From Escherichia coli (lineage in GTDB: Bacteria > Pseudomonadota > Gammaproteobacteria > Enterobacterales > Enterobacteriaceae), in assembly GCF_022846255.1 (NCBI RefSeq), contig NZ_AP025682.1: 64,000 nucleotides of DNA. One strand, written 5' to 3'. This document shows positions 2,416 to 64,000 of this stretch, in pieces. The notes below the pieces were generated by a model that was given only the letters and a program-made list of their open reading frames with translations, searched no databases and was not told the origin of the DNA. Each line of letters opens with the position of its first letter. The first letter of the stretch is position 1. Position numbers and translations under genes: made by a program.

Positions 2416-3135
2416 ATGCATCAGATGCAAACTACGCGTACCCCCTACTCTGTTTCCTTTATGGCGACAGTGTTACTTTTATTGCTCTTTGCTTGCCATA
2501 GCACCATTGCCAACGCAGCTGTCGCACTTGGTGCGACGCGGGTAATTTATCCGGCAAACCAGAAACAGGTTTTATTGCCTGTCACGAATAATGATCCTGC
2601 CAGTGTCTATCTCATTCAGTCATGGATAGAAAATGCGGGTGACCAGAAAGATACCCAGTTTGTCATTACCCCACCGCTTTTTTCCATGCAAGGTAAAAAA
2701 GAGAATACGCTTCGGATAATCAACGCCACTAATCATCAGTTACCAGGCGACCGTGAAAGCCTGTTCTGGGTTAATGTTAAAGCTATCCCTGCTATGGAAA
2801 AAGACCAGAAGAATGAGAATACATTACAGCTGGCAATTATTAGCCGCATAAAAATGTTTTATCGCCCCACGCATCTGGCAATGGCACCTGAAGAAGCGCC
2901 TGCAATGCTTCGGTTTCGTCGCAGCGGTAGCAAATTCACTCTTATTAATCCAACGCCCTACTTCATTACCGTAACGAATATGAAAGCAGGAAATAGCAAT
3001 CTCCCAAACACCATGGTGCCGCCAAAAGGTGAAGTATCGGTGGATATCCCGCATGCGGCAACCGGGGATATCAGTTTTCAGACAATCAATGATTACGGTG
3101 CATTAACTCCGCGTATTAAGGCAACCATGCAGTAA
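2416..3135 (+). CDS. Periplasmic fimbrial chaperone (PapD/FimC-like)
   Basis: N-terminal signal peptide (…LLLLLFACHSTIANA) and chaperone-like sequence; start codon uncertain (2416 to 2461). Confidence 0.8.
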   Translation: MHQMQTTRTPYSVSFMATVLLLLLFACHSTIANAAVALGATRVIYPANQKQVLLPVTNNDPASVYLIQSWIENAGDQKDTQFVITPPLFSMQGKKENTLRIINATNHQLPGDRESLFWVNVKAIPAMEKDQKNENTLQLAIISRIKMFYRPTHLAMAPEEAPAMLRFRRSGSKFTLINPTPYFITVTNMKAGNSNLPNTMVPPKGEVSVDIPHAATGDISFQTINDYGALTPRIKATMQ

Positions 3136-45865: not shown

Positions 45866-45956
45866 GAAAAACGCACCACTGCCTGACAGGCCAGTTAAAA
45901 AAAATGCTATAAAATTCAGCTTAATTTTTAACGGCAAGAGAGACAAAACAGCGAGC

Positions 45957-48593: not shown

Positions 48594-51500
48594 ATGAGTA
48601 AACTTTTGGATCGCTTTCGCTACTTCAAACAAAAGGGCGAAACCTTTGCCGATGGTCACGGACAGGTGATGCATAGCAACCGCGACTGGGAGGACAGCTA
48701 TCGCCAGCGTTGGCAGTTCGACAAAATCGTGCGTTCCACCCACGGTGTTAACTGTACAGGCTCCTGCAGCTGGAAAATCTACGTTAAAAATGGTCTGGTG
48801 ACCTGGGAAATCCAACAGACCGACTACCCGCGCACTCGCCCTGACCTGCCAAATCATGAACCTCGCGGCTGCCCGCGTGGCGCAAGTTACTCCTGGTATC
48901 TCTACAGCGCTAACCGCCTGAAATACCCGCTCATTCGTAAACGACTGATTGAACTGTGGCGCGAAGCCCTCAAACAACACAGCGATCCGGTACTGGCGTG
49001 GGCATCGATTATGAACGATCCGCAAAAGAGCCTGAGCTACAAACAAGTGCGTGGACGCGGTGGCTTTATCCGCTCCAACTGGCAGGAGCTAAATCAGCTG
49101 ATTGCCGCCGCTAACGTCTGGACCATCAAAACTTACGGCCCGGATCGCGTTGCCGGTTTCTCGCCGATTCCGGCGATGTCGATGGTTTCTTACGCCGCCG
49201 GAACACGCTATCTGTCGTTGTTAGGTGGCACCTGTTTAAGCTTCTACGACTGGTATTGCGACCTGCCGCCCGCCTCGCCGATGACCTGGGGCGAGCAAAC
49301 CGACGTACCGGAATCTGCCGACTGGTATAACTCCAGTTACATCATCGCCTGGGGGTCTAACGTACCGCAGACACGTACGCCGGACGCCCATTTCTTTACC
49401 GAAGTACGCTACAAAGGCACTAAAACCATCGCCATTACCCCTGACTACTCTGAAGTGGCCAAATTGTGCGACCAGTGGCTGGCACCGAAACAAGGCACTG
49501 ATAGTGCCCTGGCAATGGCAATGGGCCATGTCATTTTAAAAGAGTTTCATCTCGATAATCCCAGCGATTATTTTATCAACTACTGCCGCCGCTACAGCGA
49601 CATGCCGATGCTGGTAATGCTGGAACCTCGCGACGACGGCAGCTACGTTCCCGGGCGCATGGTCCGCGCATCTGACCTGGTGGATGGACTGGGCGAAAGC
49701 AATAATCCGCAGTGGAAAACCGTGGCAGTTAATACCGCAGGTGAATTGGTAGTGCCGAACGGTTCGATTGGTTTTCGCTGGGGAGAAAAAGGCAAATGGA
49801 ACCTGGAATCCATTGCCGCCGGTACGGAAACCGAATTGTCGTTAACCCTGCTCGGTCAACATGACGCCGTTGCAGGCGTGGCCTTCCCCTACTTTGGCGG
49901 CATTGAAAATCCACATTTTCGCAGCGTAAAACACAATCCTGTCCTGGTGCGCCAATTGCCCGTTAAAAACCTGACATTAGCCGATGGTAGCACCTGTCCG
50001 GTGGTCAGCGTTTATGATTTGGTACTGGCGAATTACGGCCTCGATCGCGGGCTGGAAGATGAAAACAGCGCGAAAGATTACGCTGAAATCAAACCTTATA
50101 CCCCTGCCTGGGGCGAGCAAATTACCGGCGTTCCGCGCCAGTATATTGAAACCATCGCCCGTGAATTTGCCGATACCGCCCATAAAACGCATGGGCGCTC
50201 GATGATTATTCTCGGCGCAGGTGTTAACCACTGGTATCACATGGACATGAACTACCGCGGGATGATCAATATGCTGATCTTCTGCGGTTGTGTCGGGCAA
50301 AGCGGTGGCGGCTGGGCACACTATGTCGGTCAGGAAAAACTGCGCCCGCAAACCGGCTGGCTGCCTCTGGCCTTTGCGCTCGACTGGAACCGACCACCGC
50401 GCCAGATGAACAGCACCTCGTTTTTCTACAATCACTCCAGCCAGTGGCGCTATGAAAAAGTCACCGCGCAGGAATTGCTCTCACCGCTCGCCGATGCCAG
50501 TAAATACAGCGGTCACCTGATTGATTTCAACGTTCGCGCCGAACGTATGGGCTGGCTACCTTCTGCGCCGCAGCTGGGGCGTAACCCGCTCTCCCTGAAA
50601 GCCGAAGCCGACAAGGCCGGATTGTCACCCGCCGAATTTACCGTCCAGGCACTGAAGTCAGGCGAATTACGCATGGCCTGCGAACAGCCGGACAACGGCA
50701 GCAACCATCCGCGTAACCTGTTTGTCTGGCGTTCAAACCTGCTTGGCTCTTCCGGCAAGGGCCACGAGTATATGCAGAAGTATCTGCTGGGTACGAAAAG
50801 TGGCATTCAGGGGGAAGAACTTGGACCGACGGAGGGAATCCAACCAGAAGAAGTCGAGTGGCAAACTGCGGCGATTGAAGGCAAGCTCGACCTGCTGGTG
50901 ACGCTCGACTTCCGCATGTCCAGTACCTGCCTGTTCTCCGATATCGTTCTGCCCACCGCCACCTGGTACGAAAAAGACGATATGAATACCTCGGATATGC
51001 ATCCATTTATTCATCCGCTTTCTGCGGCGGTCGATCCGGCGTGGGAATCACGCAGCGACTGGGAAATCTACAAAGGTATCGCTAAAGCCTTTTCGCAAGT
51101 GTGCATAGGGCATCTCGGCAAAGAAACCGACGTGGTATTACAACCACTGCTGCATGACTCCCCGGCAGAGCTTTCACAGCCGTGTGAAGTGCTCGACTGG
51201 CGCAAAGGTGAATGCGATCTGATTCCAGGCAAAACCGCGCCGAATATTGTGGCGGTGGAGCGCGACTACCCTGCTACCTATGAACGCTTTACCTCACTCG
51301 GGCCATTGATGGACAAACTTGGCAACGGCGGTAAAGGGATTTCGTGGAATACCCAGGATGAAATTGATTTCCTCGGTAAACTCAATTACACCAAGCGTGA
51401 TGGCCCGGCAAAGGGGCGTCCGCTGATTGACACCGCCATTGACGCATCAGAAGTGATTCTGGCACTGGCACCGGAAACCAACGGCCATGTTGCAGTCAAA

Positions 51501-52334
51501 GCGTGGCAAGCGCTGGGCGAGATCACCGGACGCGAACATACCCATCTGGCGCTGCACAAAGAGGACGAGAAGATTCGCTTTCGCGATATTCAGGCGCAGC
51601 CGCGTAAAATTATCTCCAGCCCCACATGGTCTGGTCTGGAAAGCGATCACGTTTCCTATAACGCGGGATACACCAACGTTCATGAGTTAATTCCGTGGCG
51701 CACGCTGTCAGGACGCCAGCAACTCTATCAGGATCATCCGTGGATGCGTGCTTTTGGTGAAAGTCTGGTGGCTTATCGCCCGCCTATCGACACCCGTAGC
51801 GTCAGTGAAATGCGCCAGATACCGCCAAACGGCTTCCCGGAGAAAGCCCTTAACTTCCTGACGCCGCACCAGAAATGGGGCATTCACTCAACCTACAGTG
51901 AAAACCTGCTAATGCTGACGCTCTCTCGCGGTGGACCGATTGTCTGGCTCAGCGAAACCGATGCCCGTGAACTGACCATTGTCGATAACGACTGGGTGGA
52001 AGTGTTTAACGCCAATGGCGCGCTGACTGCCCGCGCGGTGGTCAGCCAGCGTGTACCGCCGGGCATGACCATGATGTATCACGCTCAGGAACGCATTATG
52101 AATATTCCTGGTTCGGAAGTAACTGGCATGCGCGGCGGCATTCATAACTCGGTCACCCGCGTTTGTCCGAAACCAACGCATATGATTGGCGGTTACGCGC
52201 AGCTGGCCTGGGGCTTTAACTACTACGGCACCGTCGGCTCAAACCGCGACGAATTCATCATGATCCGCAAGATGAAGAACGTTAACTGGCTGGATGATGA
52301 AGGTCGCGATCAGGTACAGGAGGCGAAAAAATGA
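48594..52334 (+). CDS. narZ: Respiratory nitrate reductase Z alpha subunit
   Basis: 1246 aa from MSKLLDRFRYFKQKGETFADGHGQ…. Confidence 0.95.
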   Translation: MSKLLDRFRYFKQKGETFADGHGQVMHSNRDWEDSYRQRWQFDKIVRSTHGVNCTGSCSWKIYVKNGLVTWEIQQTDYPRTRPDLPNHEPRGCPRGASYSWYLYSANRLKYPLIRKRLIELWREALKQHSDPVLAWASIMNDPQKSLSYKQVRGRGGFIRSNWQELNQLIAAANVWTIKTYGPDRVAGFSPIPAMSMVSYAAGTRYLSLLGGTCLSFYDWYCDLPPASPMTWGEQTDVPESADWYNSSYIIAWGSNVPQTRTPDAHFFTEVRYKGTKTIAITPDYSEVAKLCDQWLAPKQGTDSALAMAMGHVILKEFHLDNPSDYFINYCRRYSDMPMLVMLEPRDDGSYVPGRMVRASDLVDGLGESNNPQWKTVAVNTAGELVVPNGSIGFRWGEKGKWNLESIAAGTETELSLTLLGQHDAVAGVAFPYFGGIENPHFRSVKHNPVLVRQLPVKNLTLADGSTCPVVSVYDLVLANYGLDRGLEDENSAKDYAEIKPYTPAWGEQITGVPRQYIETIAREFADTAHKTHGRSMIILGAGVNHWYHMDMNYRGMINMLIFCGCVGQSGGGWAHYVGQEKLRPQTGWLPLAFALDWNRPPRQMNSTSFFYNHSSQWRYEKVTAQELLSPLADASKYSGHLIDFNVRAERMGWLPSAPQLGRNPLSLKAEADKAGLSPAEFTVQALKSGELRMACEQPDNGSNHPRNLFVWRSNLLGSSGKGHEYMQKYLLGTKSGIQGEELGPTEGIQPEEVEWQTAAIEGKLDLLVTLDFRMSSTCLFSDIVLPTATWYEKDDMNTSDMHPFIHPLSAAVDPAWESRSDWEIYKGIAKAFSQVCIGHLGKETDVVLQPLLHDSPAELSQPCEVLDWRKGECDLIPGKTAPNIVAVERDYPATYERFTSLGPLMDKLGNGGKGISWNTQDEIDFLGKLNYTKRDGPAKGRPLIDTAIDASEVILALAPETNGHVAVKAWQALGEITGREHTHLALHKEDEKIRFRDIQAQPRKIISSPTWSGLESDHVSYNAGYTNVHELIPWRTLSGRQQLYQDHPWMRAFGESLVAYRPPIDTRSVSEMRQIPPNGFPEKALNFLTPHQKWGIHSTYSENLLMLTLSRGGPIVWLSETDARELTIVDNDWVEVFNANGALTARAVVSQRVPPGMTMMYHAQERIMNIPGSEVTGMRGGIHNSVTRVCPKPTHMIGGYAQLAWGFNYYGTVGSNRDEFIMIRKMKNVNWLDDEGRDQVQEAKK

Positions 52335-53875
52335 AAATACGTTCGCAAGTCGGCATGGTGCTTAACCTCGATAAATGTATCGGCTGCCATACCTGTTCGG
52401 TGACCTGTAAAAACGTCTGGACCGGACGCGAAGGCATGGAGTACGCATGGTTTAACAACGTCGAAACCAAACCGGGCATTGGTTATCCGAAAAACTGGGA
52501 AGATCAGGAAGAGTGGCAAGGCGGCTGGGTGCGTGATGTGAATGGCAAGATCCGCCCGCGTCTGGGCAGCAAGATGGGCGTAATAACCAAAATCTTCGCC
52601 AACCCGGTGGTGCCGCAGATTGATGATTACTACGAACCTTTCACCTTCGACTACGAACATTTGCATAGCGCACCGGAAGGCAAACATATCCCTACTGCTC
52701 GCCCGCGTTCACTGATTGACGGCAAACGGATGGACAAAGTGATCTGGGGGCCAAACTGGGAAGAATTGTTGGGCGGCGAATTCGAAAAACGCGCCCGTGA
52801 CCGCAACTTCGAGGCCATGCAAAAGGAGATGTACGGGCAGTTTGAAAACACCTTCATGATGTACCTGCCGCGCTTGTGCGAACACTGCCTCAATCCCAGT
52901 TGCGTGGCGACCTGCCCAAGCGGCGCTATCTACAAACGCGAAGAAGACGGCATTGTGCTGATCGATCAGGATAAATGCCGTGGCTGGCGTTTGTGCATTA
53001 GCGGTTGTCCGTACAAAAAAATCTACTTCAACTGGAAAAGCGGCAAGTCAGAAAAATGTATCTTCTGTTACCCACGAATTGAGTCAGGCCAACCCACCGT
53101 GTGCTCAGAAACCTGCGTGGGTCGCATCCGGTATCTGGGCGTGCTGCTTTACGACGCCGACCGCATCGAGGAAGCGGCGAGCACCGAGCGCGAAGTTGAC
53201 CTCTATGAACGCCAGTGCGAAGTGTTCCTCGATCCGCACGATCCCTCAGTGATCGAAGAAGCCCTGAAACAAGGTATTCCACAAAACGTGATTGACGCTG
53301 CCCAGCGTTCGCCAGTCTACAAAATGGCAATGGACTGGAAACTGGCGCTACCGCTGCACCCTGAATACCGCACCCTGCCGATGGTCTGGTACGTTCCGCC
53401 GCTGTCACCGATTCAGTCCTACGCTGATGCGGGAGGTTTGCCGAAAAGCGAAGGCGTGCTGCCCGCCATCGAAAGCCTGCGTATTCCGGTGCAATATCTC
53501 GCCAATATGTTGAGTGCCGGTGATACCGGTCCGGTACTGCGGGCGCTGAAACGGATGATGGCGATGCGCCACTATATGCGTTCACAAACCGTGGAAGGCG
53601 TTACTGATACTCGTGCCATCGACGAAGTAGGTCTGAGCGTCGCCCAGGTCGAAGAGATGTATCGTTACCTCGCCATTGCCAACTATGAAGACCGTTTTGT
53701 CATCCCGACAAGCCATCGGGAAATGGCGGGCGATGCCTTCGCAGAACGCAACGGCTGCGGTTTTACCTTTGGCGACGGTTGCCACGGCTCGGACAGCAAA
53801 TTCAACCTGTTCAACAGTAGCCGTATCGATGCCATCAACATCACCGAAGTGCGCGACAAAGCGGAGGGCGAATAA
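52331..53875 (+). CDS. narY: Nitrate reductase Z beta subunit (Fe-S)
   Basis: 514 aa with Cys clusters; 4-bp overlap with narZ. Confidence 0.95.
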   Translation: MKIRSQVGMVLNLDKCIGCHTCSVTCKNVWTGREGMEYAWFNNVETKPGIGYPKNWEDQEEWQGGWVRDVNGKIRPRLGSKMGVITKIFANPVVPQIDDYYEPFTFDYEHLHSAPEGKHIPTARPRSLIDGKRMDKVIWGPNWEELLGGEFEKRARDRNFEAMQKEMYGQFENTFMMYLPRLCEHCLNPSCVATCPSGAIYKREEDGIVLIDQDKCRGWRLCISGCPYKKIYFNWKSGKSEKCIFCYPRIESGQPTVCSETCVGRIRYLGVLLYDADRIEEAASTEREVDLYERQCEVFLDPHDPSVIEEALKQGIPQNVIDAAQRSPVYKMAMDWKLALPLHPEYRTLPMVWYVPPLSPIQSYADAGGLPKSEGVLPAIESLRIPVQYLANMLSAGDTGPVLRALKRMMAMRHYMRSQTVEGVTDTRAIDEVGLSVAQVEEMYRYLAIANYEDRFVIPTSHREMAGDAFAERNGCGFTFGDGCHGSDSKFNLFNSSRIDAINITEVRDKAEGE

Positions 53876-54570
53876 TGCAGATCCTCAAAGTGATCGGCCT
53901 GTTGATGGAGTATCCGGACGAGCTGTTATGGGAATGTAAGGAGGACGCGCTGGCGTTGATCCGCCGCGACGCACCGATGCTTACGGATTTTACCCGCAAC
54001 CTGCTTAACGCGCCGCTGCTGGATAAACAGGCCGAATGGTGCGAAGTGTTTGACCGTGGACGTACCACATCGCTGCTGCTGTTCGAACATGTTCATGCCG
54101 AGTCCCGCGATCGCGGCCAGGCAATGGTGGACCTGCTGGCGGAGTATGAAAAGGTCGGTCTGCAACTGAATTGTAGGGAACTGCCCGATTATCTACCGCT
54201 GTATCTGGAGTATTTAAGCGTACTTCCGGACGATCAGTCGAAAGAAGGATTACTCAACGTTGCGCCGATCCTCGCCCTGCTTGGCGGACGCTTAAAACAA
54301 CGCGAGGCACCGTGGTACGCGTTATTTGACGCCCTGTTGCAACTGGCAGGAAGCCCTCTGTCAAGTGACAGCGTCACAAAACAGATTCGCAGTGAAGAGC
54401 GTGACGACACCCGCCAGGCGCTGGATGCCGTGTGGGAAGAAGAACAGGTGAAGTTTATTGAAGATAACGCCACGGCGTGTGACAGCTCGCCGCTTAATCA
54501 ATATCAGCGACGCTTTAGCCAGGATGTCGCGCCGCAGTATGTCGACATCAGTGCGGGAGGTGGGAAATGA
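53875..54570 (+). CDS. narW: Nitrate reductase Z assembly chaperone (NarJ paralogue)
   Basis: 231 aa. Confidence 0.93.
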
Positions 54571-55247
54571 TTCAGTATCTGAACGTCTTTTTTTACGATA
54601 TCTACCCGTACTTGTGTGGCACGGTTTTTATCCTTGGAAGCTGGCTGCGCTACGATTACGGGCAGTATACCTGGCGTGCCGCCTCCAGCCAGATGCTGGA
54701 TAAACGCGGGATGGTGCTATGGTCGAACTTGTTCCATATCGGCATTCTGGGGATCTTCTTCGGTCATCTGTTCGGCATGTTAACGCCGCACTGGATGTAC
54801 GCGTGGTTTCTGCCGGTGGCGGTAAAACAGCAGATGGCGATGATCCTCGGCGGAATATGCGGGGTATTGACGCTGATTGGCGGTGCGGGGCTACTGGTGC
54901 GTCGTTTAACAAATCCGCGTATCAGGGTGACGTCTTCTGGTGCGGATATCCTGATCCTCGCCATTTTGTTAATTCAGTGCATTCTTGGGTTAACCACCAT
55001 TCCTTTTTCAGCACAACATCCGGACGGCAGTGAAATGATGAAGCTGGTGGGCTGGGCGCAAAGCATTGTCACTTTCCAGGGCGGTGCATCTACGCATCTT
55101 GATGGTGTCGCCTTTATATTCCGCGTTCATCTGGTGCTTGGAATGACCATCTTCCTGCTCTTCCCGTTCACCCGACTGGTGCATGTCTGGAGCGCGCCGT
55201 TTGAGTACTTTACTCGTCGGTATCAGATTGTGCGTTCGCGGCGTTAA
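54567..55247 (+). CDS. narV: Nitrate reductase Z gamma subunit (cytochrome b)
   Basis: 226 aa, polytopic. Confidence 0.93.
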
Positions 55248-55326
55248 TTCTCACGCGGGCCGGATAGCCCTTCGCTCTCCGGCCACTTGCAGGCTATGAT
55301 AGTTCTCCAGCCACAGGAGAACATTA

Positions 55327-56220
55327 ATGAAACCGCAGGTTTACCACGTCGATGCTTTTACCTCTCAACCGTTTCGCGGCAATTCTGCCGGTGTTGTTTT
55401 CCCCGCCGATAATCTCAGTGAAGCGCAAATGCAGCTTATCGCCCGCGAGTTAGGTCATTCGGAAACTGCTTTTCTGCTGCACAGAGACGACAGCGATGTG
55501 CGCATCCGCTACTTTACGCCAACGGTTGAAGTTCCGATTTGTGGTCACGCGACAGTAGCTGCGCACTATGTACGTGCAAAGGTGTTAGGTTTAGGAAATT
55601 GCACGGTCTGGCAAACATCGCTGGCAGGAAAACATCGCGTGACTATCGAAAAGCACAACGATGATTATCGTATTTCGCTGGAACAAGGTACGCCGGGCTT
55701 TGAGCCACCGCTGGAAGGTGAAACACGTGCGGCGATTATCAACGCGCTTCATCTCACTGAAGACGATATTCTGCCAGGCTTGCCAATTCAGGTGGCAACC
55801 ACAGGACACTCAAAAGTGATGATCCCACTGAAACCGGAAGTGGATATCGACGCCCTTTCGCCTGACCTTAATGCGCTGACCGCTATCAGCAAACAGATTG
55901 GCTGCAATGGTTTCTTCCCGTTCCAGATCCGCCCAGACAAAAACGAAACCGACGGTCGTATGTTCTCGCCTGCCATTGGTATTGTGGAAGATCCGGTGAC
56001 TGGCAATGCCAATGGCCCGATGGGTGCATGGTTAGTACATCACAACGTATTGCCCCACGATGGCAACGTGTTGCGTGTTAAAGGCCATCAGGGGCGCGCA
56101 TTAGGGCGTGACGGCGTGATTGAAGTGACGGTGACAATTCGTGATAACCAACCGGAGAAAGTCACCATTTCTGGCGTGGCGGTGATTTTGTTTCATGCCG
56201 AATGGGCAATTGAACTCTGA
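55327..56220 (+). CDS. yddE: PhzF-family isomerase-like protein
   Basis: 297 aa. Confidence 0.9.
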   Translation: MKPQVYHVDAFTSQPFRGNSAGVVFPADNLSEAQMQLIARELGHSETAFLLHRDDSDVRIRYFTPTVEVPICGHATVAAHYVRAKVLGLGNCTVWQTSLAGKHRVTIEKHNDDYRISLEQGTPGFEPPLEGETRAAIINALHLTEDDILPGLPIQVATTGHSKVMIPLKPEVDIDALSPDLNALTAISKQIGCNGFFPFQIRPDKNETDGRMFSPAIGIVEDPVTGNANGPMGAWLVHHNVLPHDGNVLRVKGHQGRALGRDGVIEVTVTIRDNQPEKVTISGVAVILFHAEWAIEL

Positions 56221-56227
56221 AACCGTT

Positions 56228-56303
56228 GCCTGATGCGCTTCGCTTATCAGGTCTACAACCGGGCTAATGTAGGCCGGATAAGGCGTTTACGCCACATCCG
56301 GCA
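56228..56303. repeat. REP (repetitive extragenic palindromic) element pair between yddE and nhoA
   Basis: gcctgatgcgcttcgcttatcaggtctac and tgtaggccggataaggcgtttacgccacatccggca match REP consensus. Confidence 0.75.
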
Positions 56304-56315
56304 ACCTGACATAAA

Positions 56316-57161
56316 TTATTTTCCCGCCTCCGGGTGCGTATCAAACGCCGCCATCACCAGCGCTAACTCATCCACAGTAAAGCCATGTTTCGCATCATCT
56401 ACGCCCAGACCAAACTGTTCCTGCATCACGGCATATAACGACGCCACATCTGGTAGATTTCGCTGCTCAACTGCGTGCCCATTTTCATAATGGGTAAAAT
56501 GAAAATTGGTCAGCGTTAGCTTGCCACCGTCCGGCAAATGGCGACACATCAGCAAATGATGGCGAAAATGCGACTGCGGCCAGTGCGCCGACCAGAAATT
56601 GCCCATCACATAATCGCTTTGTTGCTGCTCGCAGAGATCAAAACGGTACATCGACTGCCAGTGCTGATGATGATTAAACTGCAACACCCAATCATCACCC
56701 TCCTGCAACAACCGATACTCTCCGTGTGGCGTGGTTTGCATGATATCCGGCATTAAACGAATCGGCGCGGTTAGCGTCTGCCCACCGAAACCGACATCAG
56801 CAATCCATTTTTCCCCTTCCAGTTCCACCAACAGCAAACGATGGGTGCGCGGCGGTAATGCTGGCGGATTTGATAACACTACGCGCCCTAACAAGCTGCG
56901 AACGTTAAACCCCAGCTCGCGTAACACCCGCTCAAACACGCCATTCTGCTCAAAACAGTAACCACCACGACGGGCTATCACCAGTTTCTCTTCCAGCGAT
57001 TGATCATCAAGCTGTATTTCCCTCGGCAGCAAAACGTCGAGATTTTCAAACGGAATGGTGCAATTGTGTTTCAGGTGCAATGCACGCAGCGTATCAATAT
57101 TGGCCGCAGCAGCTCCCAACCAGTTAATACGGGCAAAATAATGATTCAGAATGGGCGTCAT
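56316..57161 (-). CDS. nhoA: Arylamine N-acetyltransferase (N-hydroxyarylamine O-acetyltransferase)
   Basis: 281 aa, MTPILNHYFARINW…; catalytic Cys context GGYCFEQN. Confidence 0.93.
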   Translation of the reverse strand: MTPILNHYFARINWLGAAAANIDTLRALHLKHNCTIPFENLDVLLPREIQLDDQSLEEKLVIARRGGYCFEQNGVFERVLRELGFNVRSLLGRVVLSNPPALPPRTHRLLLVELEGEKWIADVGFGGQTLTAPIRLMPDIMQTTPHGEYRLLQEGDDWVLQFNHHQHWQSMYRFDLCEQQQSDYVMGNFWSAHWPQSHFRHHLLMCRHLPDGGKLTLTNFHFTHYENGHAVEQRNLPDVASLYAVMQEQFGLGVDDAKHGFTVDELALVMAAFDTHPEAGK

Positions 57162-57335
57162 CAGGCGTTTCCCTTAGTGGTTTTCTCAACTTATAACCTG
57201 GAATAGACGCCGCACTGGCTATTTTGTGCGATCGCGGACATGCATCACGTTCGCAAATCGCCAATCCCGTTAATTTCGTTACTTATTGCGTTACGAGCTA
57301 CGCTTTTAAAACACCCTTCATAGCGAGGCGATATC

Positions 57336-57905
57336 GTGAGCCGATTCATCCCTGTCGAATTACACCATGCCAGCCGTCTGTTAAATCATGGCCCAACTGT
57401 CTTGATCACCAGTTTCGATGAGCAATCCCAGCGGCGTAACATTATGGCAGCAGCCTGGTCAATGCCGGTGGAGTTTGAACCGCCACGCGTGGCGATTGTG
57501 GTAGATAAATCGACATGGACCAGGGAGTTGATTGAACGTAACGGTAAGTTTGGCATCGTTATCCCGGGCGTTGCGGCGACTAACTGGACGTGGGCGGTGG
57601 GAAGTGTGTCGGGGCGTGATGAAGATAAGTTTAATTGCTATGGTATTCCGGTTGTGAAAGGTCCGGTGCTTGGTTTGCCGCTGGTCGAGGAAAAATGTCT
57701 GGCGTGGATGGAGTGTCGCCTGCTACCTGCAACTTCCGCGCAAGAAAAATACGATACGCTATTTGGCGAAGTGGTATCTGCAGCGGCAGACGCACGAGTA
57801 TTTGTCGAAGGCCGCTGGCAGTTTGATGATGACAAACTCAATACGTTGCATCATTTAGGTGCTGGCACGTTTGTTACCAGCGGCAAGCGTGTTACGGCAG
57901 GTTAA
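57336..57905 (+). CDS. yddH: Flavin-reductase-like domain protein
   Basis: 189 aa. Confidence 0.88.
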   Translation: MSRFIPVELHHASRLLNHGPTVLITSFDEQSQRRNIMAAAWSMPVEFEPPRVAIVVDKSTWTRELIERNGKFGIVIPGVAATNWTWAVGSVSGRDEDKFNCYGIPVVKGPVLGLPLVEEKCLAWMECRLLPATSAQEKYDTLFGEVVSAAADARVFVEGRWQFDDDKLNTLHHLGAGTFVTSGKRVTAG

Positions 57906-57908
57906 GCA

Positions 57909-58136
57909 TTACATGCTGTAACCGGGTTTCTTTATCAAAGCCTCCATTTGGGGCTCGACTTCGGCATCCCAGATAGCTTGCCAAGATTCTGGTTGAATCT
58001 GCTGTAGAGAAATGCTTATCGAGCTATCTTTACTGTTCAGATGGCGAATAATAACGTCGGTAATATCTGCAGCAAGTGCTGCTTTTTGTTGTTCGTCCAG
58101 TTCACGCGGAAAACATTTAATGTCTATGTGCGGCAT
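57909..58136 (-). CDS. pptA: Tautomerase (4-oxalocrotonate tautomerase family)
   Basis: 75 aa from [18 protein letters not shown]… with N-terminal Pro after Met. Confidence 0.88.
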
Positions 58137-58441
58137 GATTGTGCTCCTTTTGAAAGATGTCAGTAAAATTAACACACGTTGTGAATGTCGTGTGTCCGGT
58201 AATGCGTTTTTACGGCAATAATGCCTACTTGAAATTGTACATATTTGTACTACACACTTTTAAATAAAGCGCCAATGAAAACGTTAACTTGCAGAATATA
58301 TTCTTCGCCAACATGCCATTAAGAAAACATCAAGTTCCCGGCTTGCCAATTTGTTAACGCCCATTATAGTTATTCTTGCCCTCACTAAAAATTTTCATCC
58401 GTAATTACCCCCAATAAAAATCCATTCTGGAGACGCTTAAG

Positions 58442-60418
58442 ATGCAGCTTAATCATATCGTTAAAAGTCTGCTAATAACGGGATTATTCACCACCAGTTC
58501 TTTACCTCTCCTCGCGGCGGAAGCTCCTAAAGACGCCACCGCAGCCACGCAACAAGCAAACAATTTACTCTACAACCAGTTGCCGTTTGCCGATAACACT
58601 GACTTTACTGATGCCCATAAAGGTTTTATTGCCCCTATCCCTCAAGACGTGATTAAGGGCGAACAAGGGAATGTTATCTGGGATCCACAACATTACGCTT
58701 TTATCAAAGAAGGCGATAAAGCCCCTGATACGGTGAATCCGAGTTTATGGCGTCAGGCGCAACTGATAAATATCAGCGGGTTATTCGAAGTAACTGAAGG
58801 TGTCTATCAGATTCGCAATCTCGATCTATCAAATATGACCATCATTGAAGGCAAAGAGGGTATTACCGTCGTTGATCCCCTTGTTTCAGCAGAAACAGCC
58901 AAAGTGGGTATGGATCTCTATTACAAAAATCGCGGCAAAAAACCGGTAGTGGCGGTTATCTATACACACAGTCATGTCGATCACTACGGTGGTGTTCGTG
59001 GCGTAATTGATGAAGCTGACGTTAAATCAGGCAAAGTTAAAATCTATGCGCCAGCCGGATTTTTGGAGGAAGCCGTTTCCGAAAACATCATGGCTGGCAA
59101 TGTTATGAGCCGACGAGCCAGTTATATGTATGGCAACTTATTGAAACCTGATGTTAAAGGCCAGGTGGGGGCTGGACTGGGAACGACTACTTCAGCAGGA
59201 ACAGTCACGTTGATTGCTCCTACTAACTACATCACCAAAACCGGACAAATAGAAACTATTGACGGGTTGACTTATGATTTCCTGATGGCGCCAGGTTCTG
59301 AAGCGCCTTCTGAAATGCTGTGGTTTATTGAAGAAAAGAAACTGATCGAAACCGCTGAAGATGTCACGCACACCCTTCATAACACCTATTCGCTGCGTGG
59401 GGCTAAAATTCGCCAACCGCTGCCGTGGTCAAAATATATTAATGAAGCTCTCAATTTGTGGGGTGATAAAGCCGAGATTATTCTCGCTCAACATCACTGG
59501 CCAACCTGGGGCAACGATAACGTGGTCAAACTGCTTAAAAGCCAGCGTGATTTGTATCGTTACATCAATGATCAAACTCTGCGCATGGCTAATCAAGGGA
59601 TGACCCGTGATGAAATTGCCGCAAACTTTAAACTGCCCTCTTCACTGGCTAACACCTGGGCGAATCGCGGCTATTACGGTTCGGTAAGTCATGACGTGAA
59701 AGCAACTTACGTGCTTTATCTCGGCTGGTTTGATGGTAACCCCGCGACGCTTGATGAACTGCCGCCAGAAGAAGGCGCAAAAAAATTCGTCGAGTATATG
59801 GGCGGTGCTGATGCCATTTTACAGAAAGCCAAACAGGATTATGACCAGGGTAATTTCCGCTGGGTTGCCCAAGTTGTTAGTAAGGTGGTGTTTGCCGATC
59901 CAAACAACCAGGCAGCGAGAGATCTGGAAGCTGATGCGCTTGAGCAGTTAGGCTATCAGGCTGAATCTGGGCCGTGGCGTAATTTCTATCTCACTGGTGC
60001 ACAGGAATTGCGTAATGGCGTACAAAAATTACCAACACCAAATACTGCCAGCCCAGACACCGTGCGTGCGATGACGCCGGAGATGTTCTTTGATTATCTT
60101 GCCGTCCATATTAATGGTGAGAAAGCGGCAGATGCCAAAACCGTGTTGAATTTCGATTTTGGTGAAGATGGCGGCACCTATAAAGTGGAGCTTGAAAATG
60201 GTGTTCTCAATCATACCGCTGGTGTAGAGGCTTCGGATGCTGATGCCACTATCACTCTGTCTCGTGATGTATTGAACAAAATTGTACTGAAAGAAGAGAC
60301 GCTGAAAGAAGCCACGGCCAAAGGAGATGTCAAAATTACTGGCAATGCGGAAAAACTCAACGAGCTGTTAGGTTATATGGATAATTTTGAATTTTGGTTC
60401 AATATAGTGACACCATAA
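58442..60418 (+). CDS. Secreted alkyl/aryl-sulfatase of the metallo-beta-lactamase fold (SdsA1/YjcS-like)
   Basis: 658 aa; signal peptide (…TTSSLPLLAAEAP); MBL zinc motif THSHVDHYGG; not at this position in K-12 as far as I recall. Confidence 0.8.
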   Translation: MQLNHIVKSLLITGLFTTSSLPLLAAEAPKDATAATQQANNLLYNQLPFADNTDFTDAHKGFIAPIPQDVIKGEQGNVIWDPQHYAFIKEGDKAPDTVNPSLWRQAQLINISGLFEVTEGVYQIRNLDLSNMTIIEGKEGITVVDPLVSAETAKVGMDLYYKNRGKKPVVAVIYTHSHVDHYGGVRGVIDEADVKSGKVKIYAPAGFLEEAVSENIMAGNVMSRRASYMYGNLLKPDVKGQVGAGLGTTTSAGTVTLIAPTNYITKTGQIETIDGLTYDFLMAPGSEAPSEMLWFIEEKKLIETAEDVTHTLHNTYSLRGAKIRQPLPWSKYINEALNLWGDKAEIILAQHHWPTWGNDNVVKLLKSQRDLYRYINDQTLRMANQGMTRDEIAANFKLPSSLANTWANRGYYGSVSHDVKATYVLYLGWFDGNPATLDELPPEEGAKKFVEYMGGADAILQKAKQDYDQGNFRWVAQVVSKVVFADPNNQAARDLEADALEQLGYQAESGPWRNFYLTGAQELRNGVQKLPTPNTASPDTVRAMTPEMFFDYLAVHINGEKAADAKTVLNFDFGEDGGTYKVELENGVLNHTAGVEASDADATITLSRDVLNKIVLKEETLKEATAKGDVKITGNAEKLNELLGYMDNFEFWFNIVTP

Positions 60419-60432
60419 ATTTACTGCATACC

Positions 60433-60456
60433 GGGCAGGTATCCTGCCCTTTTTTG
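60433..60456 (+). terminator. Rho-independent terminator after the alkylsulfatase gene
   Basis: gggcagg-tat-cctgccc followed by tttttt. Confidence 0.75.
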
Positions 60457-60464
60457 GTTAAAAA

Positions 60465-61562
60465 ATGGCTGAACGAAGAAAAACGCATCACTCATGGAAA
60501 ACCCGCCGCGATATGGTTATTCGCGGCATGACGATTAGTTTGCCATGGTTTGCTTTTATCAATGTCAGTTTTGCATTGATAATTTTGCTGCGCCGTGTTC
60601 TGTTTAATGACCTTACTCCACCCTGGTTAAATGAAAAAAGCCTTATACATTCTATTGATATATCTGCAACGGGTATTCTGCTGATTTGCAGTGGTTTACT
60701 ACTCATCCCTCGGCAAAAAACATTACCTATCCAGGTGCTATTAGTTGCCCTGAGCCTGCTATGGTCATGGTGTAGTTATCACTTTATTGCGTACTGGACG
60801 CTGCAGTTTGCTTATCCACTATGTGTATTATTAATGCTTAGTGGCGTTGTCGCACTTTATTTCCATACCCCATCATTGCTCGCATTTGTCATTCCCTTAT
60901 GGTTCACCACTCCAATAGCGAGTCTTATGCTTAATCAACAGATCAATATTCATTTTGCTGTTGTATGGTGTATTTTTTCACTGGCGCTATATGGTGGGCG
61001 ACTCATTTTGTTACGTTGGTTTGAAGAAGCATGGGTACAAAACAGTTATAACAACCAGTTAATTAATCGCCTTGATGCATTAGCACATCGCGATCCTTTA
61101 ACTGGGATAGCAAACCGACGTGCAATGAACAGTATCTTACACGACGCGATGGATAACGGCGGGTCATTTGCTCTTATTATGCTGGATGTCGATTTTTTTA
61201 AACGTTACAACGACACTTACGGGCATCCTGCTGGGGATCGTTGTCTAATACAAGTTGCCGACGCTCTACAGCGTTCAACTCGCCAGTCGGAGGATGTTGT
61301 TGTCCGTTATGGTGGCGAAGAGTTTGCCATCATACTTTTTAATGCAACATTGCCGGAAGCAGAGACGGTAGCAGCCAGAGTGAAGCAAGAACTTAAACTG
61401 GCAGCTATCCCACATCAGGCATCTGCTGTTAATGCATTCGTTACGGTTAGTCAGGGGATTACCTGTTCTGCTCCCGCAAAAACGGCTGAACAAATTATTT
61501 CAGATGCCGACGCTGCGTTATACCGGGCGAAAGAAAGTGGGCGAAATCGATGGGCTTTATAA
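60465..61562 (+). CDS. Membrane-anchored diguanylate cyclase (multi-TM N-terminal domain + GGDEF domain)
   Basis: ~200 aa hydrophobic N-terminus with 5-6 TM segments, then GGDEF hallmarks: DPLTGIANRR, RYGGEEF, ADAALYRAKESGRNR; AT-rich; start codon uncertain. Confidence 0.8.
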   Translation: MAERRKTHHSWKTRRDMVIRGMTISLPWFAFINVSFALIILLRRVLFNDLTPPWLNEKSLIHSIDISATGILLICSGLLLIPRQKTLPIQVLLVALSLLWSWCSYHFIAYWTLQFAYPLCVLLMLSGVVALYFHTPSLLAFVIPLWFTTPIASLMLNQQINIHFAVVWCIFSLALYGGRLILLRWFEEAWVQNSYNNQLINRLDALAHRDPLTGIANRRAMNSILHDAMDNGGSFALIMLDVDFFKRYNDTYGHPAGDRCLIQVADALQRSTRQSEDVVVRYGGEEFAIILFNATLPEAETVAARVKQELKLAAIPHQASAVNAFVTVSQGITCSAPAKTAEQIISDADAALYRAKESGRNRWAL

Positions 61563-61635
61563 GCATTAGGGGACTGGACAGATTACGTCTCTCCTCGCTT
61601 AACAAGGGCTGACGGAGGGTAATAATTGTCTATAG

Positions 61636-62187
61636 CTATCTTCTTAGCGATGTCTTTCTGGTATCACATTGGATCGGTGCAATTATTTTTCCTTTAATAC
61701 CCATTATGTTAAGAAATTCAGAACCAGCTGTAATCTCATTGTTTTTTTCATTCGTCTTGATCTTCCAAGGAATCTGACTGTGCATTATTGAGAACACACT
61801 AATAACGTGAATCGCTCCCTTGCGACGACTCTTGTCATAAGAGTACCGGAGCGTTTTTCCATCAATTGCAATGACGTCTTTATCATCTGAAGAATGGCAG
61901 TCAAGCATCCAGTTAATAAAGCACTCATGAAATTTTTCAGGACTGATACAGGATACAACTCTGGCAATGGTATCGTGAACAGGAATACCATTATCAAAAT
62001 CACCATATTGCTTCAAAAAATCGAGATGTGTTTCCCCAAAATCCTCTATATCTTCCCAGCCTTCTGCACCCGAAATAACGACACAAATAGTCAACAGTAG
62101 AATATCCGATAATTTATGCTCCACTTTCCAGGCTTGTCTGTAATCGGGGATAATAGAAATATGTTCCATCAATTTTTTAAGTTCCAT
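61636..62187 (-). mobile_element. ISAs1-family (H-repeat, YdcC/YhhI-like) transposase, 5' fragment only (about codons 1-190, frameshifted near its end)
   Basis: [63 protein letters not shown]… is the H-repeat protein N-terminus as I recall it; frame breaks after …IKGKII and similarity ends about 75 bp before the DGC stop. Confidence 0.8.
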
Positions 62188-62360
62188 TTTGTTCTCCTTA
62201 ATTATGTAAAGAGTATTTGATCATGTATAAGCAATAAAAAACAGCTTTAGGTAATGAGGAATATCTCAATTTTTAAACATAAAATGCGAATTATTTAGTA
62301 CAAAAAAGCAGCGTTACGTGATCTTTCCATGGAAAAGAGAGTAATACACTGATTTTTAAC

Positions 62361-62395
62361 GCAGATTGCCAGTGCTACCAACACTGACAATCTGC
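62361..62395 (+). promoter_or_regulatory. 14-bp imperfect inverted repeat upstream of the symE-like gene (candidate operator)
   Basis: gcagattgccagtg-N7-cactgacaatctgc, one mismatch, about 35 bp upstream of ATG 62428. Confidence 0.35.
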
Positions 62396-62427
62396 TCACC
62401 ACAAGCAACTAACAGAGGTAGTTAATC

Positions 62428-62747
62428 ATGGCTGAACACGATATTACGCCAGAAGTCGCCATTTCCAAAACACAGCGCCGCTATAAAGTCGGCTATGTCA
62501 GAGCCCGCCACATAAACAGCAAACCACGTACTACTCACGACACCCCAGCCTGAACCTTAAGGGCGACTGGCTGAAAGAGGCCGGATTTGATACCGGACGG
62601 GGTGTCACGGTGAAGATTTCGGAGGGGTGCCTGACCATCATCGCTGACAGTGACGAGGTGCAGGAACTGCGGGAGGAACTTTATCAGGTTAAACAGGTGG
62701 TTAAGGGGATGCGGAACGGGATGTTTAGTGTGCTGAACGAGAATTAA
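62428..62747 (+). pseudogene. SymE-family (type I toxin-like, AbrB-fold) gene with an apparent -1 frameshift
   Basis: Frame A gives MAEHDITPEVAISKTQRRYKVGYVRARHINSKPRTTHDTPA then TGA at 62551; frame -1 continues LNLKGDWLKEAGFDTGRGVTVKISEGCLTII…, resembling the SymE core (ITLKGQWLEAAGF…EGC) as I recall it. Confidence 0.6.
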
Positions 62748-62797
62748 ATAATAAAAAAGCCGGGGAGATTTAAAATCTTCCCGGCTTTCTTTATCAT

Positions 62798-63100
62798 CTA
62801 AAAAGGTAATAATCCTCTAATAGGAGAAAATTTTGTAATATCAATACCTTGTAATTTAAAGTAATTAAAAGCATCTTCTATATTGGAAAACGCACTAATT
62901 TCTTCAGTTGCATAATCTTCGAACACTTCCATTTTATTTTCTGGTATTTTGAAAAAATAGGTATTGTATTTTTCATCCTGTTTTTTAATGGCATATTGGA
63001 AAAAATAACTTTCACCATTTATTTCCTTTATCTCATCAAAACCTCTAACCTTACCATTCTCTATAGCAACAATTAATTTTTCAATAGACAAATCAACCAT
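62798..63100 (-). CDS. Small acidic protein, candidate immunity protein
   Basis: 100 aa, D/E-rich; start overlaps the stop of the upstream basic ORF by 8 bp; AT-rich codon usage. Confidence 0.5.
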   Translation of the reverse strand: MVDLSIEKLIVAIENGKVRGFDEIKEINGESYFFQYAIKKQDEKYNTYFFKIPENKMEVFEDYATEEISAFSNIEDAFNYFKLQGIDITKFSPIRGLLPF

Positions 63101-63440
63101 CTATATCTATCCTCACCATTGTCCCATCAGAACGTTTAATATTTATATGAGGCAAAGAACCATGCCCTGTGCCTTTATGGTCATCATGACCATATACACG
63201 ACCAGTATTAGAATCAATAGGGTAATCTTTCCTATAACGGACAGTACCATCTCTTTTCTTAAATTGTTCCATCTTATGTTTTTTTCTAATACCGGCGGCA
63301 TCCTGCGAACTGATCCCTCTTACTTTTTGAGCATCAGGAAAGGCCTCCATCAATAAATCATGGGCTTCCTGTTTTGATTTAACTGTGACAACGGTTCCTT
63401 GAGGCCCCAGGGCAAGATTACGAAAGCCCGCTCCCCGCAA
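63093..63440 (-). CDS. Small basic His-rich protein, candidate orphan toxin domain (possibly HNH/EndoVII-type nuclease tip)
   Basis: 115 aa, K/R-rich with [21 protein letters not shown]; no Rhs DPxGL or CdiA VENN junction visible; its start overlaps the ISAs1 transposase stop, so the N-terminal part may not be genuine. Confidence 0.45.
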
Positions 63441-64000
63441 GGACTGACGCCAGATAGTTTCTGTCCATGGCTGCTTTTCGCATCTTACGTCTTAACCCTG
63501 CCTTGAATACCTTATCATTCGTCAAAATATTAATAGCGATGTGCCGTATCCCTGAAAATAATTCTGCTGCATTTCCTCTTCTTATTTTGCAGTCGTCTTC
63601 ATTCATTACCACGTCCAGACGCCAGTGCAGCTTATTCTCCACGTGCCAGTGGTTTCGGATTGCTGTGGCGAACTTCTCTGCGGTTAAATCAGCAGAACTG
63701 ATATAATATCTGACCGTCATTTCTGGCTATTTCTTTTGTTCTGCTATTATGGACCGAAAGGAGACTGCCACGCATAATTTCTTCAGTCCTTTCCATTCAA
63801 ACGTGAAATCAATAAGTTCATCAGGGACATCGCAAACAATATGAAGACGGATTTCTTCTCTGCCGTGACTTTTTTCACTAATTGCGTAACTGTCATGCTC
63901 TGGATTATTCAATTCTTTCAGCGGAAATTTTTCCTCGAAGGCTTTATTTAGCCGCCCCTGGTTTCCTTTTACAGCGAATAAATAATCACCTCCCTGTTTT
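63418..64000 (-). mobile_element. ISAs1-family (H-repeat) transposase, 3' portion, interrupted by an in-frame TAG; continues beyond the window
   Basis: Reverse-strand translation from the window edge reads [43 protein letters not shown]…AEQKK-(TAG at 63727..63729)[45 protein letters not shown]…. Confidence 0.8.

What the first reader, a model, noticed from the sequence alone, without database searches (positions are those of the whole stretch)
62428..62747. Frameshifted symE-like gene convergent with the toxin/immunity pair
The N-terminal 41 codons and the C-terminal 65 codons are each SymE-like but sit in frames offset by one base (TGA at 62551). SymE is an SOS-induced type I toxin in K-12 with an antisense RNA over its 5' end. 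Here either the gene is decaying, or there is a sequencing error, or less likely translation requires a frameshift.
Basis: partly seen in the sequence, partly recalled or inferred. Interest (0 to 1): 0.5.

Follow-up and report, generated by a model that had tools for sequence, protein, structure and literature searches.

The report
symE-like toxin gene broken by deletion
This is an ordinary, recently inactivated copy of a known small toxin gene (SymE family) in an E. coli-type chromosome: a 10-base deletion splits it into two reading frames, while the antisense RNA gene that normally silences it is still intact.

Summary
62428..62747 (+) is a SymE-family gene split over two frames, with a TGA at 62551. 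The cause is a 10-bp deletion between 62522 and 62523. Apart from that gap, 470 nt around the gene are identical to an intact 330-nt, 109-aa E. coli orthologue (WP_000807556.1) at the same locus, next to an orphan Rhs toxin/immunity pair. The deletion hits codons 33-35, upstream of the AbrB/MazE-like core, so the 41-aa product is a null.

It is not a sequencing error. The same junction, with identical DNA, occurs in at least three independent datasets. The window has only one other indel in 22 kb against an E. coli reference.

It is not programmed frameshifting. Intact relatives use one frame, and no standard slippery heptamer is present.

The allele is rare. It is absent from 5,426 complete E. 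coli genomes, 100,044 species-representative genomes and JGI metagenomes.

A SymR-like antisense RNA gene (62433..62358, -) overlaps the ribosome-binding site and start codon. It keeps its two hairpins, which covariation supports, and its promoter inside the ORF. SOS (LexA) control is unproven.

Broken copies are common in this subfamily. Verdict: a known kind of gene, recently pseudogenised, and of low interest.

The parts
62428..62553 (+). 5' part of the broken symE-like ORF. Codons 1-32 are authentic (MAEHDITPEVAISKTQRRYKVGYVRARHINSK), followed by 9 out-of-frame codons and TGA at 62551.
62522..62523 (.). Junction of the 10-bp deletion (AACCTACATG / ACCTACATGA missing; placement is ambiguous by 1 nt, with 1-nt microhomology). 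It removes part of codons 33-35 (T-Y-M) and shifts the frame.
62523..62747 (+). 3' part of the symE-like ORF in the -1 frame (residues 36-109 of the intact protein plus TAA). It encodes the whole AbrB/MazE-like core and the C-terminal helix. The first start codon in this frame is GTG 62610, inside the core.
62415..62418 (+). Shine-Dalgarno GAGG, 9 nt upstream of ATG 62428.
   Evidence: read directly from the sequence; conserved in relatives
62358..62433 (-). SymR-like cis-antisense RNA with two hairpins, complementary to the 5' UTR, SD and first 6 nt of the ORF.
   Evidence: Rfam symR 48.3 bits, E 1.8e-7, below gathering 61. Fold -35.3 kcal/mol, z -5.9. 92.5% of cells paired and 14 compensatory pairs in 14 sequences, against 32-53% when slid.
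62441..62468 (-). Candidate SymR-like promoter inside the symE-like ORF: -35 TTGGAA (62468..62463), 16-nt spacer, -10 TAATAT (62446..62441), 7 nt to +1 A at 62433.
   Evidence: The TAnnAT hexamer is invariant in 18 relatives including K-12 symR, at the same distance from +1. Sequence. It scores 8/12, below the promoter scanner's threshold.
62347..62366 (+). CTG-N10-CAG motif (CACTGATTTTTAACGCAGAT), a possible weak LexA box that overlaps the foot of the SymR-like 3' hairpin.
   Evidence: not at the position of the K-12 box and not conserved in relatives, so inconclusive
62756..62788 (.). 15-bp hairpin with an A-run on one side and a T-run on the other. It is a likely bidirectional terminator shared by the symE-like gene and the convergent immunity/toxin pair.
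62499..62617 (-). Rfam isrA (RF01385) match on the antisense strand of codons 24-63. The 10-bp deletion lies inside it.
   Evidence: 96.4 bits here against 118.8 in the intact orthologue; no covariation support
62798..63440 (-). Context: orphan Rhs-type toxin C-terminal ORF (63093..63440) and immunity-like ORF (62798..63100), convergent with the symE-like gene.
   Evidence: no Pfam or NCBIfam match
61636..62187 (-). Context: ISAs1-family transposase fragment upstream of the symE-like gene. A second ISAs1 copy starts near 63409.

Best explanation
The locus is a SymE/SymR-type module: a small AbrB/MazE-fold toxin gene with a cis-antisense RNA over its ribosome-binding site. It belongs to the subfamily that sits beside Rhs toxin/immunity cassettes in an E. 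coli-type chromosome. In this lineage a 10-bp deletion at 62522/62523 shifted the frame after codon 32. Translation from ATG 62428 therefore ends at TGA 62551 and gives a 41-residue peptide with no AbrB-like domain, so the toxin gene is a null pseudogene. The event is recent: the gene, its 5' region and its 3' flank carry no other difference from intact orthologues. The SymR-like antisense RNA gene and its promoter, which lie 45-90 nt upstream of the deletion, are untouched and presumably still transcribed. Shown here: the deletion, its derived state, its presence in independent datasets, family membership, and the conserved structure and position of the antisense RNA. Inferred: loss of function, continued SymR-like expression, and that the intact protein acts like K-12 SymE (growth inhibition by nucleoid condensation).
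For: Apart from the 10-nt gap, the window is identical over 470 nt to the intact 330-nt genes of E. coli strains 104 and 14EC020, both annotated as 'SymE family type I addiction module toxin', in the same pptA / alkyl-sulfatase / GGDEF / ISAs1 / symE / orphan-toxin context. The intact form is ancestral: the KTYMTTYYSRHPSL segment is shared with Kosakonia, Citrobacter and other homologues. The window has only two indels against E. coli 14EC020 in 22.3 kb with 395 substitutions, and the other is 1 nt and intergenic. The exact 41-aa product is deposited as GDA53876.1. The same junction with 100% identical DNA is in GCA_005387665.1, in Logan assemblies of DRR322657 and ERR2349758, and in an ENA assembly. 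Pfam SymE_toxin matches the intact orthologue at 2.5e-20. In the AlphaFold model, all core strands and helices except strand 22-29 lie after residue 36. The SymR-like RNA is supported. Broken copies are common in relatives: by a crude ORF test only 12 of 43 copies at >=55% identity are simple intact ORFs, and L019, L021 and L045 carry independent 1-nt frameshifts.
Against: No reads, transcripts or protein data were available. Loss of function is inferred from the missing domain, not measured. The three or four datasets with the allele also share the neighbouring ISAs1 junction, so they are one lineage rather than recurrent events. The SymR-like match is below Rfam's gathering score.
Confidence: 0.9

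Rival explanations
1. Sequencing or assembly error: the true genome has the intact 330-nt gene.
For: The junction is absent from 5,426 complete E. coli genomes, from 100,044 species-representative genomes and from JGI metagenome contigs. It therefore looked private to this record at first.
Against: The identical junction and identical flanks occur in a deposited draft genome, in two Logan re-assemblies of different runs and in an ENA metagenome assembly. A 10-bp loss outside any homopolymer or tandem repeat is not a typical platform error. The window has only one other indel in 22 kb against a reference.
Confidence: 0.03
2. Programmed or leaky -1 ribosomal frameshifting restores a functional SymE-like protein, for example P-site slippage on C CCA just before the TGA (62544..62553), giving ...HDTPSLNLKGDWL...
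For: A -1 slip anywhere in 62487..62551 would join the two frames. C-CCA-G followed one codon later by a stop is a conceivable P-site slip context (read from the sequence).
Against: There is no X XXY YYZ heptamer in the overlap. Intact orthologues and all homologues are single-frame. The two-frame arrangement is a derived, rare allele, so there has been no time for selection of a recoding signal. Any slip product would lack the invariant Y39 and nearly invariant S40.
Confidence: 0.015
3. The functional unit here is not the protein gene but antisense RNAs (an IsrA-like RNA across the ORF plus the SymR-like RNA), and the deletion alters an sRNA rather than killing a toxin.
For: The Rfam isrA match is above gathering on the antisense strand and the deletion lies inside it. 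Salmonella IsrA was detected as a 423-nt transcript that overlaps STM0294.1n in antisense, with inverse expression (PMC2330248).
Against: The isrA match falls on codons 24-66 of every symE-like ORF tested. The alignment shows no compensatory pairs (6 predicted pairs, 0 covarying), so conservation of the coding strand explains it. No promoter-like site was found upstream of 62617 on the minus strand. The ORF is intact and under protein-level conservation in many species.
Confidence: 0.05

Closest known systems
E. coli K-12 symE/symR (b4347/b4625), type I toxin-antitoxin-like pair (Kawano et al. 2007, PMC1891008)
   Same: The protein is a small AbrB/MazE-like protein with the LKGxWLxxAGF core. 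A ~77-nt antisense RNA with two hairpins starts 6 nt inside the ORF and covers the SD and start codon. The antisense -10 element is embedded in the ORF at the same distance from +1.
   Different: Protein identity is only 42% over 72 residues, and the score is 53.6 bits against an equivalog cut-off of 132. The linker is 8 residues longer and the C-terminal tail differs. The K-12 LexA box is not conserved in position. The genomic context is an Rhs orphan cassette, not the hsd/mcr island. Here the ORF is broken.
WP_000807556.1, 'SymE family type I addiction module toxin' at the pptA-proximal Rhs locus of E. coli strains 104, 14EC020 and others
   Same: It is the same locus, and the DNA is identical over 470 nt including the 5' UTR, the SymR-like gene and the terminator.
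   Different: The window lacks 10 bp (AACCTACATG). The product is therefore 41 aa instead of 109 aa.
Rfam isrA (RF01385), Salmonella island-encoded sRNA IsrA (Padalon-Brauch et al. 2008, PMC2330248)
   Same: The sequence match is above the gathering score on the strand antisense to the symE-like ORF.
   Different: In 12 relatives the match shows no covariation. Ten model positions are deleted here. Whether any such transcript is made in this organism is unknown.

Membership tests
SymE protein family (Pfam PF08845 SymE_toxin) | Significant match to the SymE_toxin domain | tested here: met
   The intact orthologue, identical in sequence except for the deletion, matches PF08845 at E 2.5e-20 over residues 16-75. 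The window's frame-3 half matches NCBIfam SymE at E 2e-12. All 120 listed homologues carry PF08845.
SymE protein family (Pfam PF08845 SymE_toxin) | One uninterrupted ORF of about 95-115 codons | tested here: not met
   The 10-bp deletion splits the gene into 41 codons (frame 1) and 74 codons (frame 3). It is a pseudogene of the family, not a functional member.
SymE protein family (Pfam PF08845 SymE_toxin) | AbrB/MazE-like swapped-hairpin fold | tested here: inconclusive
   The AlphaFold2 model of the intact orthologue has pLDDT 79.6. The top Foldseek PDB hits are MazE 1mvf_D (prob 0.84, E 0.41), VapB1, EcMazE, AbrB and SpoVT, but none reaches E 0.001. A profile search found no sequence-level PDB match.
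K-12 SymE orthologue (NCBIfam NF010128 equivalog) | Score at or above the curated cut-off of 132 bits | tested here: not met
   The repaired protein scores 53.6 bits and is 42% identical to K-12 SymE. It is a paralogous subfamily.
SymE/SymR type I toxin-antitoxin system | Cis-encoded antisense RNA that overlaps the toxin's SD and start codon | tested here: met
   A symR-like match lies at 62358..62433 (-), E 1.8e-7. It folds stably into two hairpins, z -5.9. In 14 sequences, 92.5% of cells are paired and 14 pairs show compensatory change, against 32-53% for slid controls. Invariant G-U pairs fit the minus strand only.
SymE/SymR type I toxin-antitoxin system | Rfam symR (RF01809) gathering score of 61 bits | tested here: not met
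   The window scores 48.3 bits. K-12 scores 95.3. None of 17 related loci reached gathering for symR, although they share the structure.
SymE/SymR type I toxin-antitoxin system | Antisense promoter embedded in the toxin ORF | tested here: met
   The TAnnAT hexamer is invariant 7 nt upstream of +1 in 18 sequences, despite different codons on the other strand. TTGGAA lies 16 nt upstream of it. This is sequence evidence only; transcription was not measured.
SymE/SymR type I toxin-antitoxin system | LexA box in the toxin promoter (SOS induction) | tested here: inconclusive
   One CTG-N10-CAG lies at 62349-62364. It matches the 20-nt consensus, recalled from my own knowledge, at 10 of 20 positions, against 15 of 20 for K-12. 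It is 13 nt away from the position of the K-12 box and is absent from 11 of 12 relatives.
SymE/SymR type I toxin-antitoxin system | Toxicity of the protein on overexpression, repression by the RNA, and Lon degradation | not testable with these tools
   Experimental properties reported for K-12 only (PMC1891008; PMC11894785).
Programmed ribosomal frameshift genes | Slippery site, with the two-frame arrangement conserved in orthologues | tested here: not met
   No X XXY YYZ heptamer lies in 62487..62551. Orthologues and homologues are single-frame. The two-frame form is a rare derived allele.
Rfam isrA (RF01385) | Score above gathering, with a conserved secondary structure | tested here: inconclusive
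   The score criterion is met: 96.4 bits against 51. The structure criterion is not supported: 6 predicted pairs and 0 compensatory in 12 homologous segments.

The most novel reading that the evidence does not exclude
The SymR-like RNA gene is fully intact after the death of its cis toxin. It may be kept because it acts in trans on paralogous symE-like mRNAs elsewhere in the genome. Most E. coli paralogues share only the last ~47 nt of this 5' region (from 62394 through the start codon) and lack the 3' hairpin of their own SymR. One complete SymR-like gene could therefore serve as a shared antitoxin for several Rhs-linked copies.
Probability: 0.08. Interest if true: 0.35.

Novelty: already known. 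Interest (0 to 1): 0.1.

Why it matters
It matters little beyond correct annotation. The feature should be labelled as a frameshifted SymE-family pseudogene with an intact SymR-like antisense RNA gene, not as two hypothetical ORFs. It adds one more example to a visible pattern: Rhs-linked symE-like toxin genes are often truncated or frameshifted while their 5' regulatory region persists. The 10-bp deletion is also a usable lineage marker. It is absent from 5,426 complete E. coli genomes but present in a few drafts and metagenomes.

Tried and rejected
1. Sequencing error. It was first favoured by the absence of the junction from three large collections. It was then rejected when the exact 41-aa product and identical DNA were found in independent datasets.

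2. Programmed frameshift. I looked by eye for slippery heptamers in the 65-nt overlap and found none. Orthologues are single-frame.

3. LexA control. The CTG-N10-CAG search gave 20 sites in the window against 11.9 +/- 3.7 expected. The one upstream of the gene is not homologous in position to the K-12 box and is not conserved. This is left open.

4. Sense promoter. The consensus scan found no plus-strand promoter in 62150..62428, and I could not place one by homology.

5. isrA as a structured RNA. There is no covariation.

6. Ssr1 (RF02627). The match of 113.5 bits against a gathering score of 820 is only a partial antisense overlap, so it is not a member.

7. A solved structure of a relative. 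None was found by sequence, and the fold search was only suggestive.

8. Source organism. The best identity to complete E. coli genomes is 98.5-98.8% and it is not a GTDB representative. The 45-aa C-terminal ORF is deposited for E. coli TRECRb50, but its DNA could not be fetched.

9. One literature search was wasted, because the word-start match 'isra' retrieved 'Israel'.

Full report
**What is in the sequence**

From ATG 62428 the plus strand reads 41 codons, MAEHDITPEVAISKTQRRYKVGYVRARHINSKPRTTHDTPA, and stops at TGA 62551. The frame offset by -1/+2 is open from 62487 to TAA 62745. It reads ...TTYYSRHPSLNLKGDWLKEAGFDTGRGVTVKISEGCLTIIADSDEVQELREELYQVKQVVKGMRNGMFSVLNEN. A GAGG Shine-Dalgarno sits 9 nt before the ATG. 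A 15-bp hairpin flanked by A and T runs (62756..62788) follows the stop. It faces the convergent minus-strand ORFs 62798..63100 and 63093..63440.

**Where the window comes from**

The window is an E. coli-type chromosome. It is 98.5% identical to E. coli over 11.4 kb and colinear with narZ-narI, yddE, nhoA, yddH, pptA, an alkyl sulfatase, a GGDEF protein and an ISAs1 fragment. In E. coli strains 104, MEI003 and 14EC020 the next gene at this position is a 330-nt, 109-aa gene annotated 'SymE family type I addiction module toxin' (WP_000807556.1). It is followed, convergently, by two small hypothetical genes and a full-length Rhs gene with DcrB-like and VgrG genes.

**The lesion**

A DNA alignment over 470 nt shows the window is identical to strain 104 at every position except a 10-nt gap. 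AACCTACATG is missing between 62522 and 62523. A 22.3-kb comparison with strain 14EC020 gives 395 substitutions and only two indels: this one and a single intergenic base at 45897. There is no substitution between 62252 and 63225.

The deleted bases encode part of K32-T-Y-M35. This is a variable linker just before the invariant Y39, P43 and the LKGxWLxxAGF core. The same KTYMTTYYSRHPSL segment occurs in Kosakonia and Citrobacter homologues. The 109-aa form is therefore ancestral and the window carries a derived deletion.

**Real mutation or artefact**

The junction sequence is absent from three collections:
- 5,426 complete E. coli genomes, where the best match is 91.4%, that is, the intact allele.
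- 100,044 species-representative genomes.
- JGI metagenome contigs.

However, the exact 41-aa product is in the protein collection as GDA53876.1 from E. coli HmCmsJML164. Contigs encoding it were retrieved from four sources:
- GCA_005387665.1.
- A Logan assembly of run DRR322657.
- A Logan assembly of run ERR2349758.
- An ENA assembly of the ERR2349758 metagenome.

All carry the same junction. Three of them are 100% identical to the window over 494-1139 nt. The deletion is outside any homopolymer or repeat, and the window is otherwise nearly indel-free. A sequencing or assembly error is therefore very unlikely. These contigs also run into the same ISAs1 junction near 63409, so they represent one lineage and not recurrent events.

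**Frameshifting**

The two-frame arrangement is a rare derived allele, and all intact homologues are single-frame. The 65-nt overlap contains no X XXY YYZ heptamer. The only conceivable slip, C CCA before the stop, would give a protein without the invariant Y39. I put this below 2%.

**Family**

The intact orthologue matches Pfam SymE_toxin at E 2.5e-20. The window's C-terminal half matches NCBIfam 'endoribonuclease SymE' at E 2e-12, and the repaired protein matches at 1.8e-14. Its 53.6 bits is far below the equivalog cut-off of 132. Identity to K-12 SymE is 42% over 72 residues. It is therefore a paralogous subfamily of the SymE family.

An AlphaFold2 model of the intact protein (pLDDT 79.6) has strands at 22-29, 36-44, 63-68 and 71-76, a short helix at 50-54 and a long C-terminal helix at 79-108. 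The best PDB fold matches are MazE, VapB1, AbrB and SpoVT. None is statistically significant, but they agree with the published assignment of SymE to the AbrB superfamily (PMC1891008). The 41-aa product keeps only the disordered N-terminus and the first strand. The first start codon in the downstream frame (GTG 62610) lies inside the core. The allele is best read as a null.

K-12 SymE was first described as an SOS-induced toxin that promotes RNA cleavage (PMC1891008). It is now described as a non-specific DNA-binding protein that condenses the nucleoid (PMC11894785, citing Thompson et al. 2022; the RefSeq product name agrees). The link between SymE-family genes and RHS genes was already noted in 2007 (PMC1891008, section 13).

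**The antisense RNA**

Rfam symR matches 62358..62433 on the minus strand with 48.3 bits and E 1.8e-7. This is below the gathering score of 61. The RNA would start 6 nt inside the ORF and cover the start codon and SD, as in K-12. It folds into two hairpins at -35.3 kcal/mol, z -5.9.

I aligned it with K-12 SymR and 12 homologous regions from other Enterobacterales found by a genome scan. The consensus has the same two hairpins, and 14 of 24 pairs show compensatory change. In this alignment 92.5% of cells are paired, against 32-53% when the partners are slid, and no shuffle reaches the observed values. Invariant G-U pairs in the 5' hairpin would be A-C mismatches on the other strand, which favours the minus-strand RNA.

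Upstream of +1, inside the ORF, a TAnnAT hexamer (TAATAT, 62446..62441) is invariant in 18 sequences although the codons opposite differ. TTGGAA lies 16 nt further up. This matches the published arrangement in which the symR promoter is embedded in symE (PMC1891008). The deletion lies 45 nt beyond this promoter and leaves it untouched.

**SOS control**

SOS control is not established. One CTG-N10-CAG lies at 62349..62364. It is offset by 13 nt from the K-12 LexA box in the alignment. It matches the LexA consensus less well than the K-12 box does. It is absent from nearly all relatives. No plus-strand promoter was detected.

**Context in the family**

Only 73 E. coli genomes carry the complete 5' region. 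Other E. coli paralogues share only the last ~47 nt, from 62394.

Broken copies are frequent among relatives in species-representative genomes. By a crude ORF test, only 12 of 43 copies with at least 55% identity have a simple intact ORF. L019 and L021 have a 1-nt loss in an AAA run at codon 20, and L045 has a 1-nt insertion. Decay of these genes is thus the rule rather than an oddity.

**Side observations**

- The Rfam isrA family (RF01385) matches the antisense strand of codons 24-66 of every symE-like gene tested: 118.8 bits in the intact orthologue and 96.4 here, because the deletion removes ten model positions. An alignment of 12 such segments gives 6 predicted pairs and no compensatory change. 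Conservation of the coding strand is enough to explain the match. Salmonella IsrA itself was detected experimentally as a 423-nt RNA antisense to STM0294.1n (PMC2330248).
- The Ssr1 match (113.5 bits against a gathering score of 820) is a partial overlap only.

**Verdict**

This is a known kind of gene, a SymE-family toxin with a SymR-like antisense RNA beside an Rhs orphan cassette. It was recently inactivated by a real 10-bp deletion in one rare E. coli lineage. It is correctly called a pseudogene and is of low interest.

Noticed in passing
window 62499..62617 (-); L001 6248..6376 (-); ten further loci: Rfam isrA (RF01385) always matches the antisense strand of codons 24-66 of symE-like ORFs. 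It shows no covariation in 12 homologous segments. The family model may mostly capture conservation of the coding strand.
   Followed up: partly
window 62458..63044 (-): There is a partial match to Rfam Ssr1 (Shigella small RNA 1), 113.5 bits against a gathering score of 820. Only model positions ~400-654 align well, and they are antisense to the symE-like gene. This suggests Ssr1 overlaps a symE-like paralogue in Shigella.
   Followed up: no
window 62798..63440 (-) and 63409..64000: The orphan toxin-like ORF (115 aa) and immunity-like ORF (100 aa) match no Pfam or NCBIfam family. In E. coli 14EC020 a full 4.4-kb Rhs gene with DcrB-like and VgrG genes lies directly upstream of them. In the window the homology stops at 63408 and an ISAs1 element follows.
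   Followed up: partly
window 58000..63408 versus 49500..58000: The accessory block from the alkyl sulfatase to the orphan toxin is only ~0.3% divergent from E. coli 14EC020. The adjacent core genes (narZ region to pptA) reach 2-9% per 500 nt. This is a sharp change in divergence, consistent with recent horizontal sharing of the block.
   Followed up: no
window 62394..62440; E. coli paralogues: Most E. coli symE-like paralogues share only the last ~47 nt of the 5' region and lack the 3' hairpin of the SymR-like RNA. Only 73 of 5,426 genomes carry the complete 5' region.
   Followed up: partly
L019 3001..3123, L021 3001..3123, L045 3001..3125: There are independent 1-nt frameshifts near codons 18-20 of symE-like genes in three other genera. 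Two are in the same AAA run. This could be a mutational hotspot, or errors in draft or MAG assemblies.
   Followed up: partly
L021, L028, L031, L034, L050 upstream of position 3001: In several relatives an upstream plus-strand ORF ends a few bases before the SymR-like terminator hairpin. This may be the HTH partner gene that Kawano et al. describe for some SymE neighbourhoods. It was not analysed.
   Followed up: no
L041 1323..1413: A tRNA-Sec gene lies about 1.6 kb upstream of a symE-like gene in Enterobacter sp. ENT03. This fits location in an island at a tRNA integration site.
   Followed up: no
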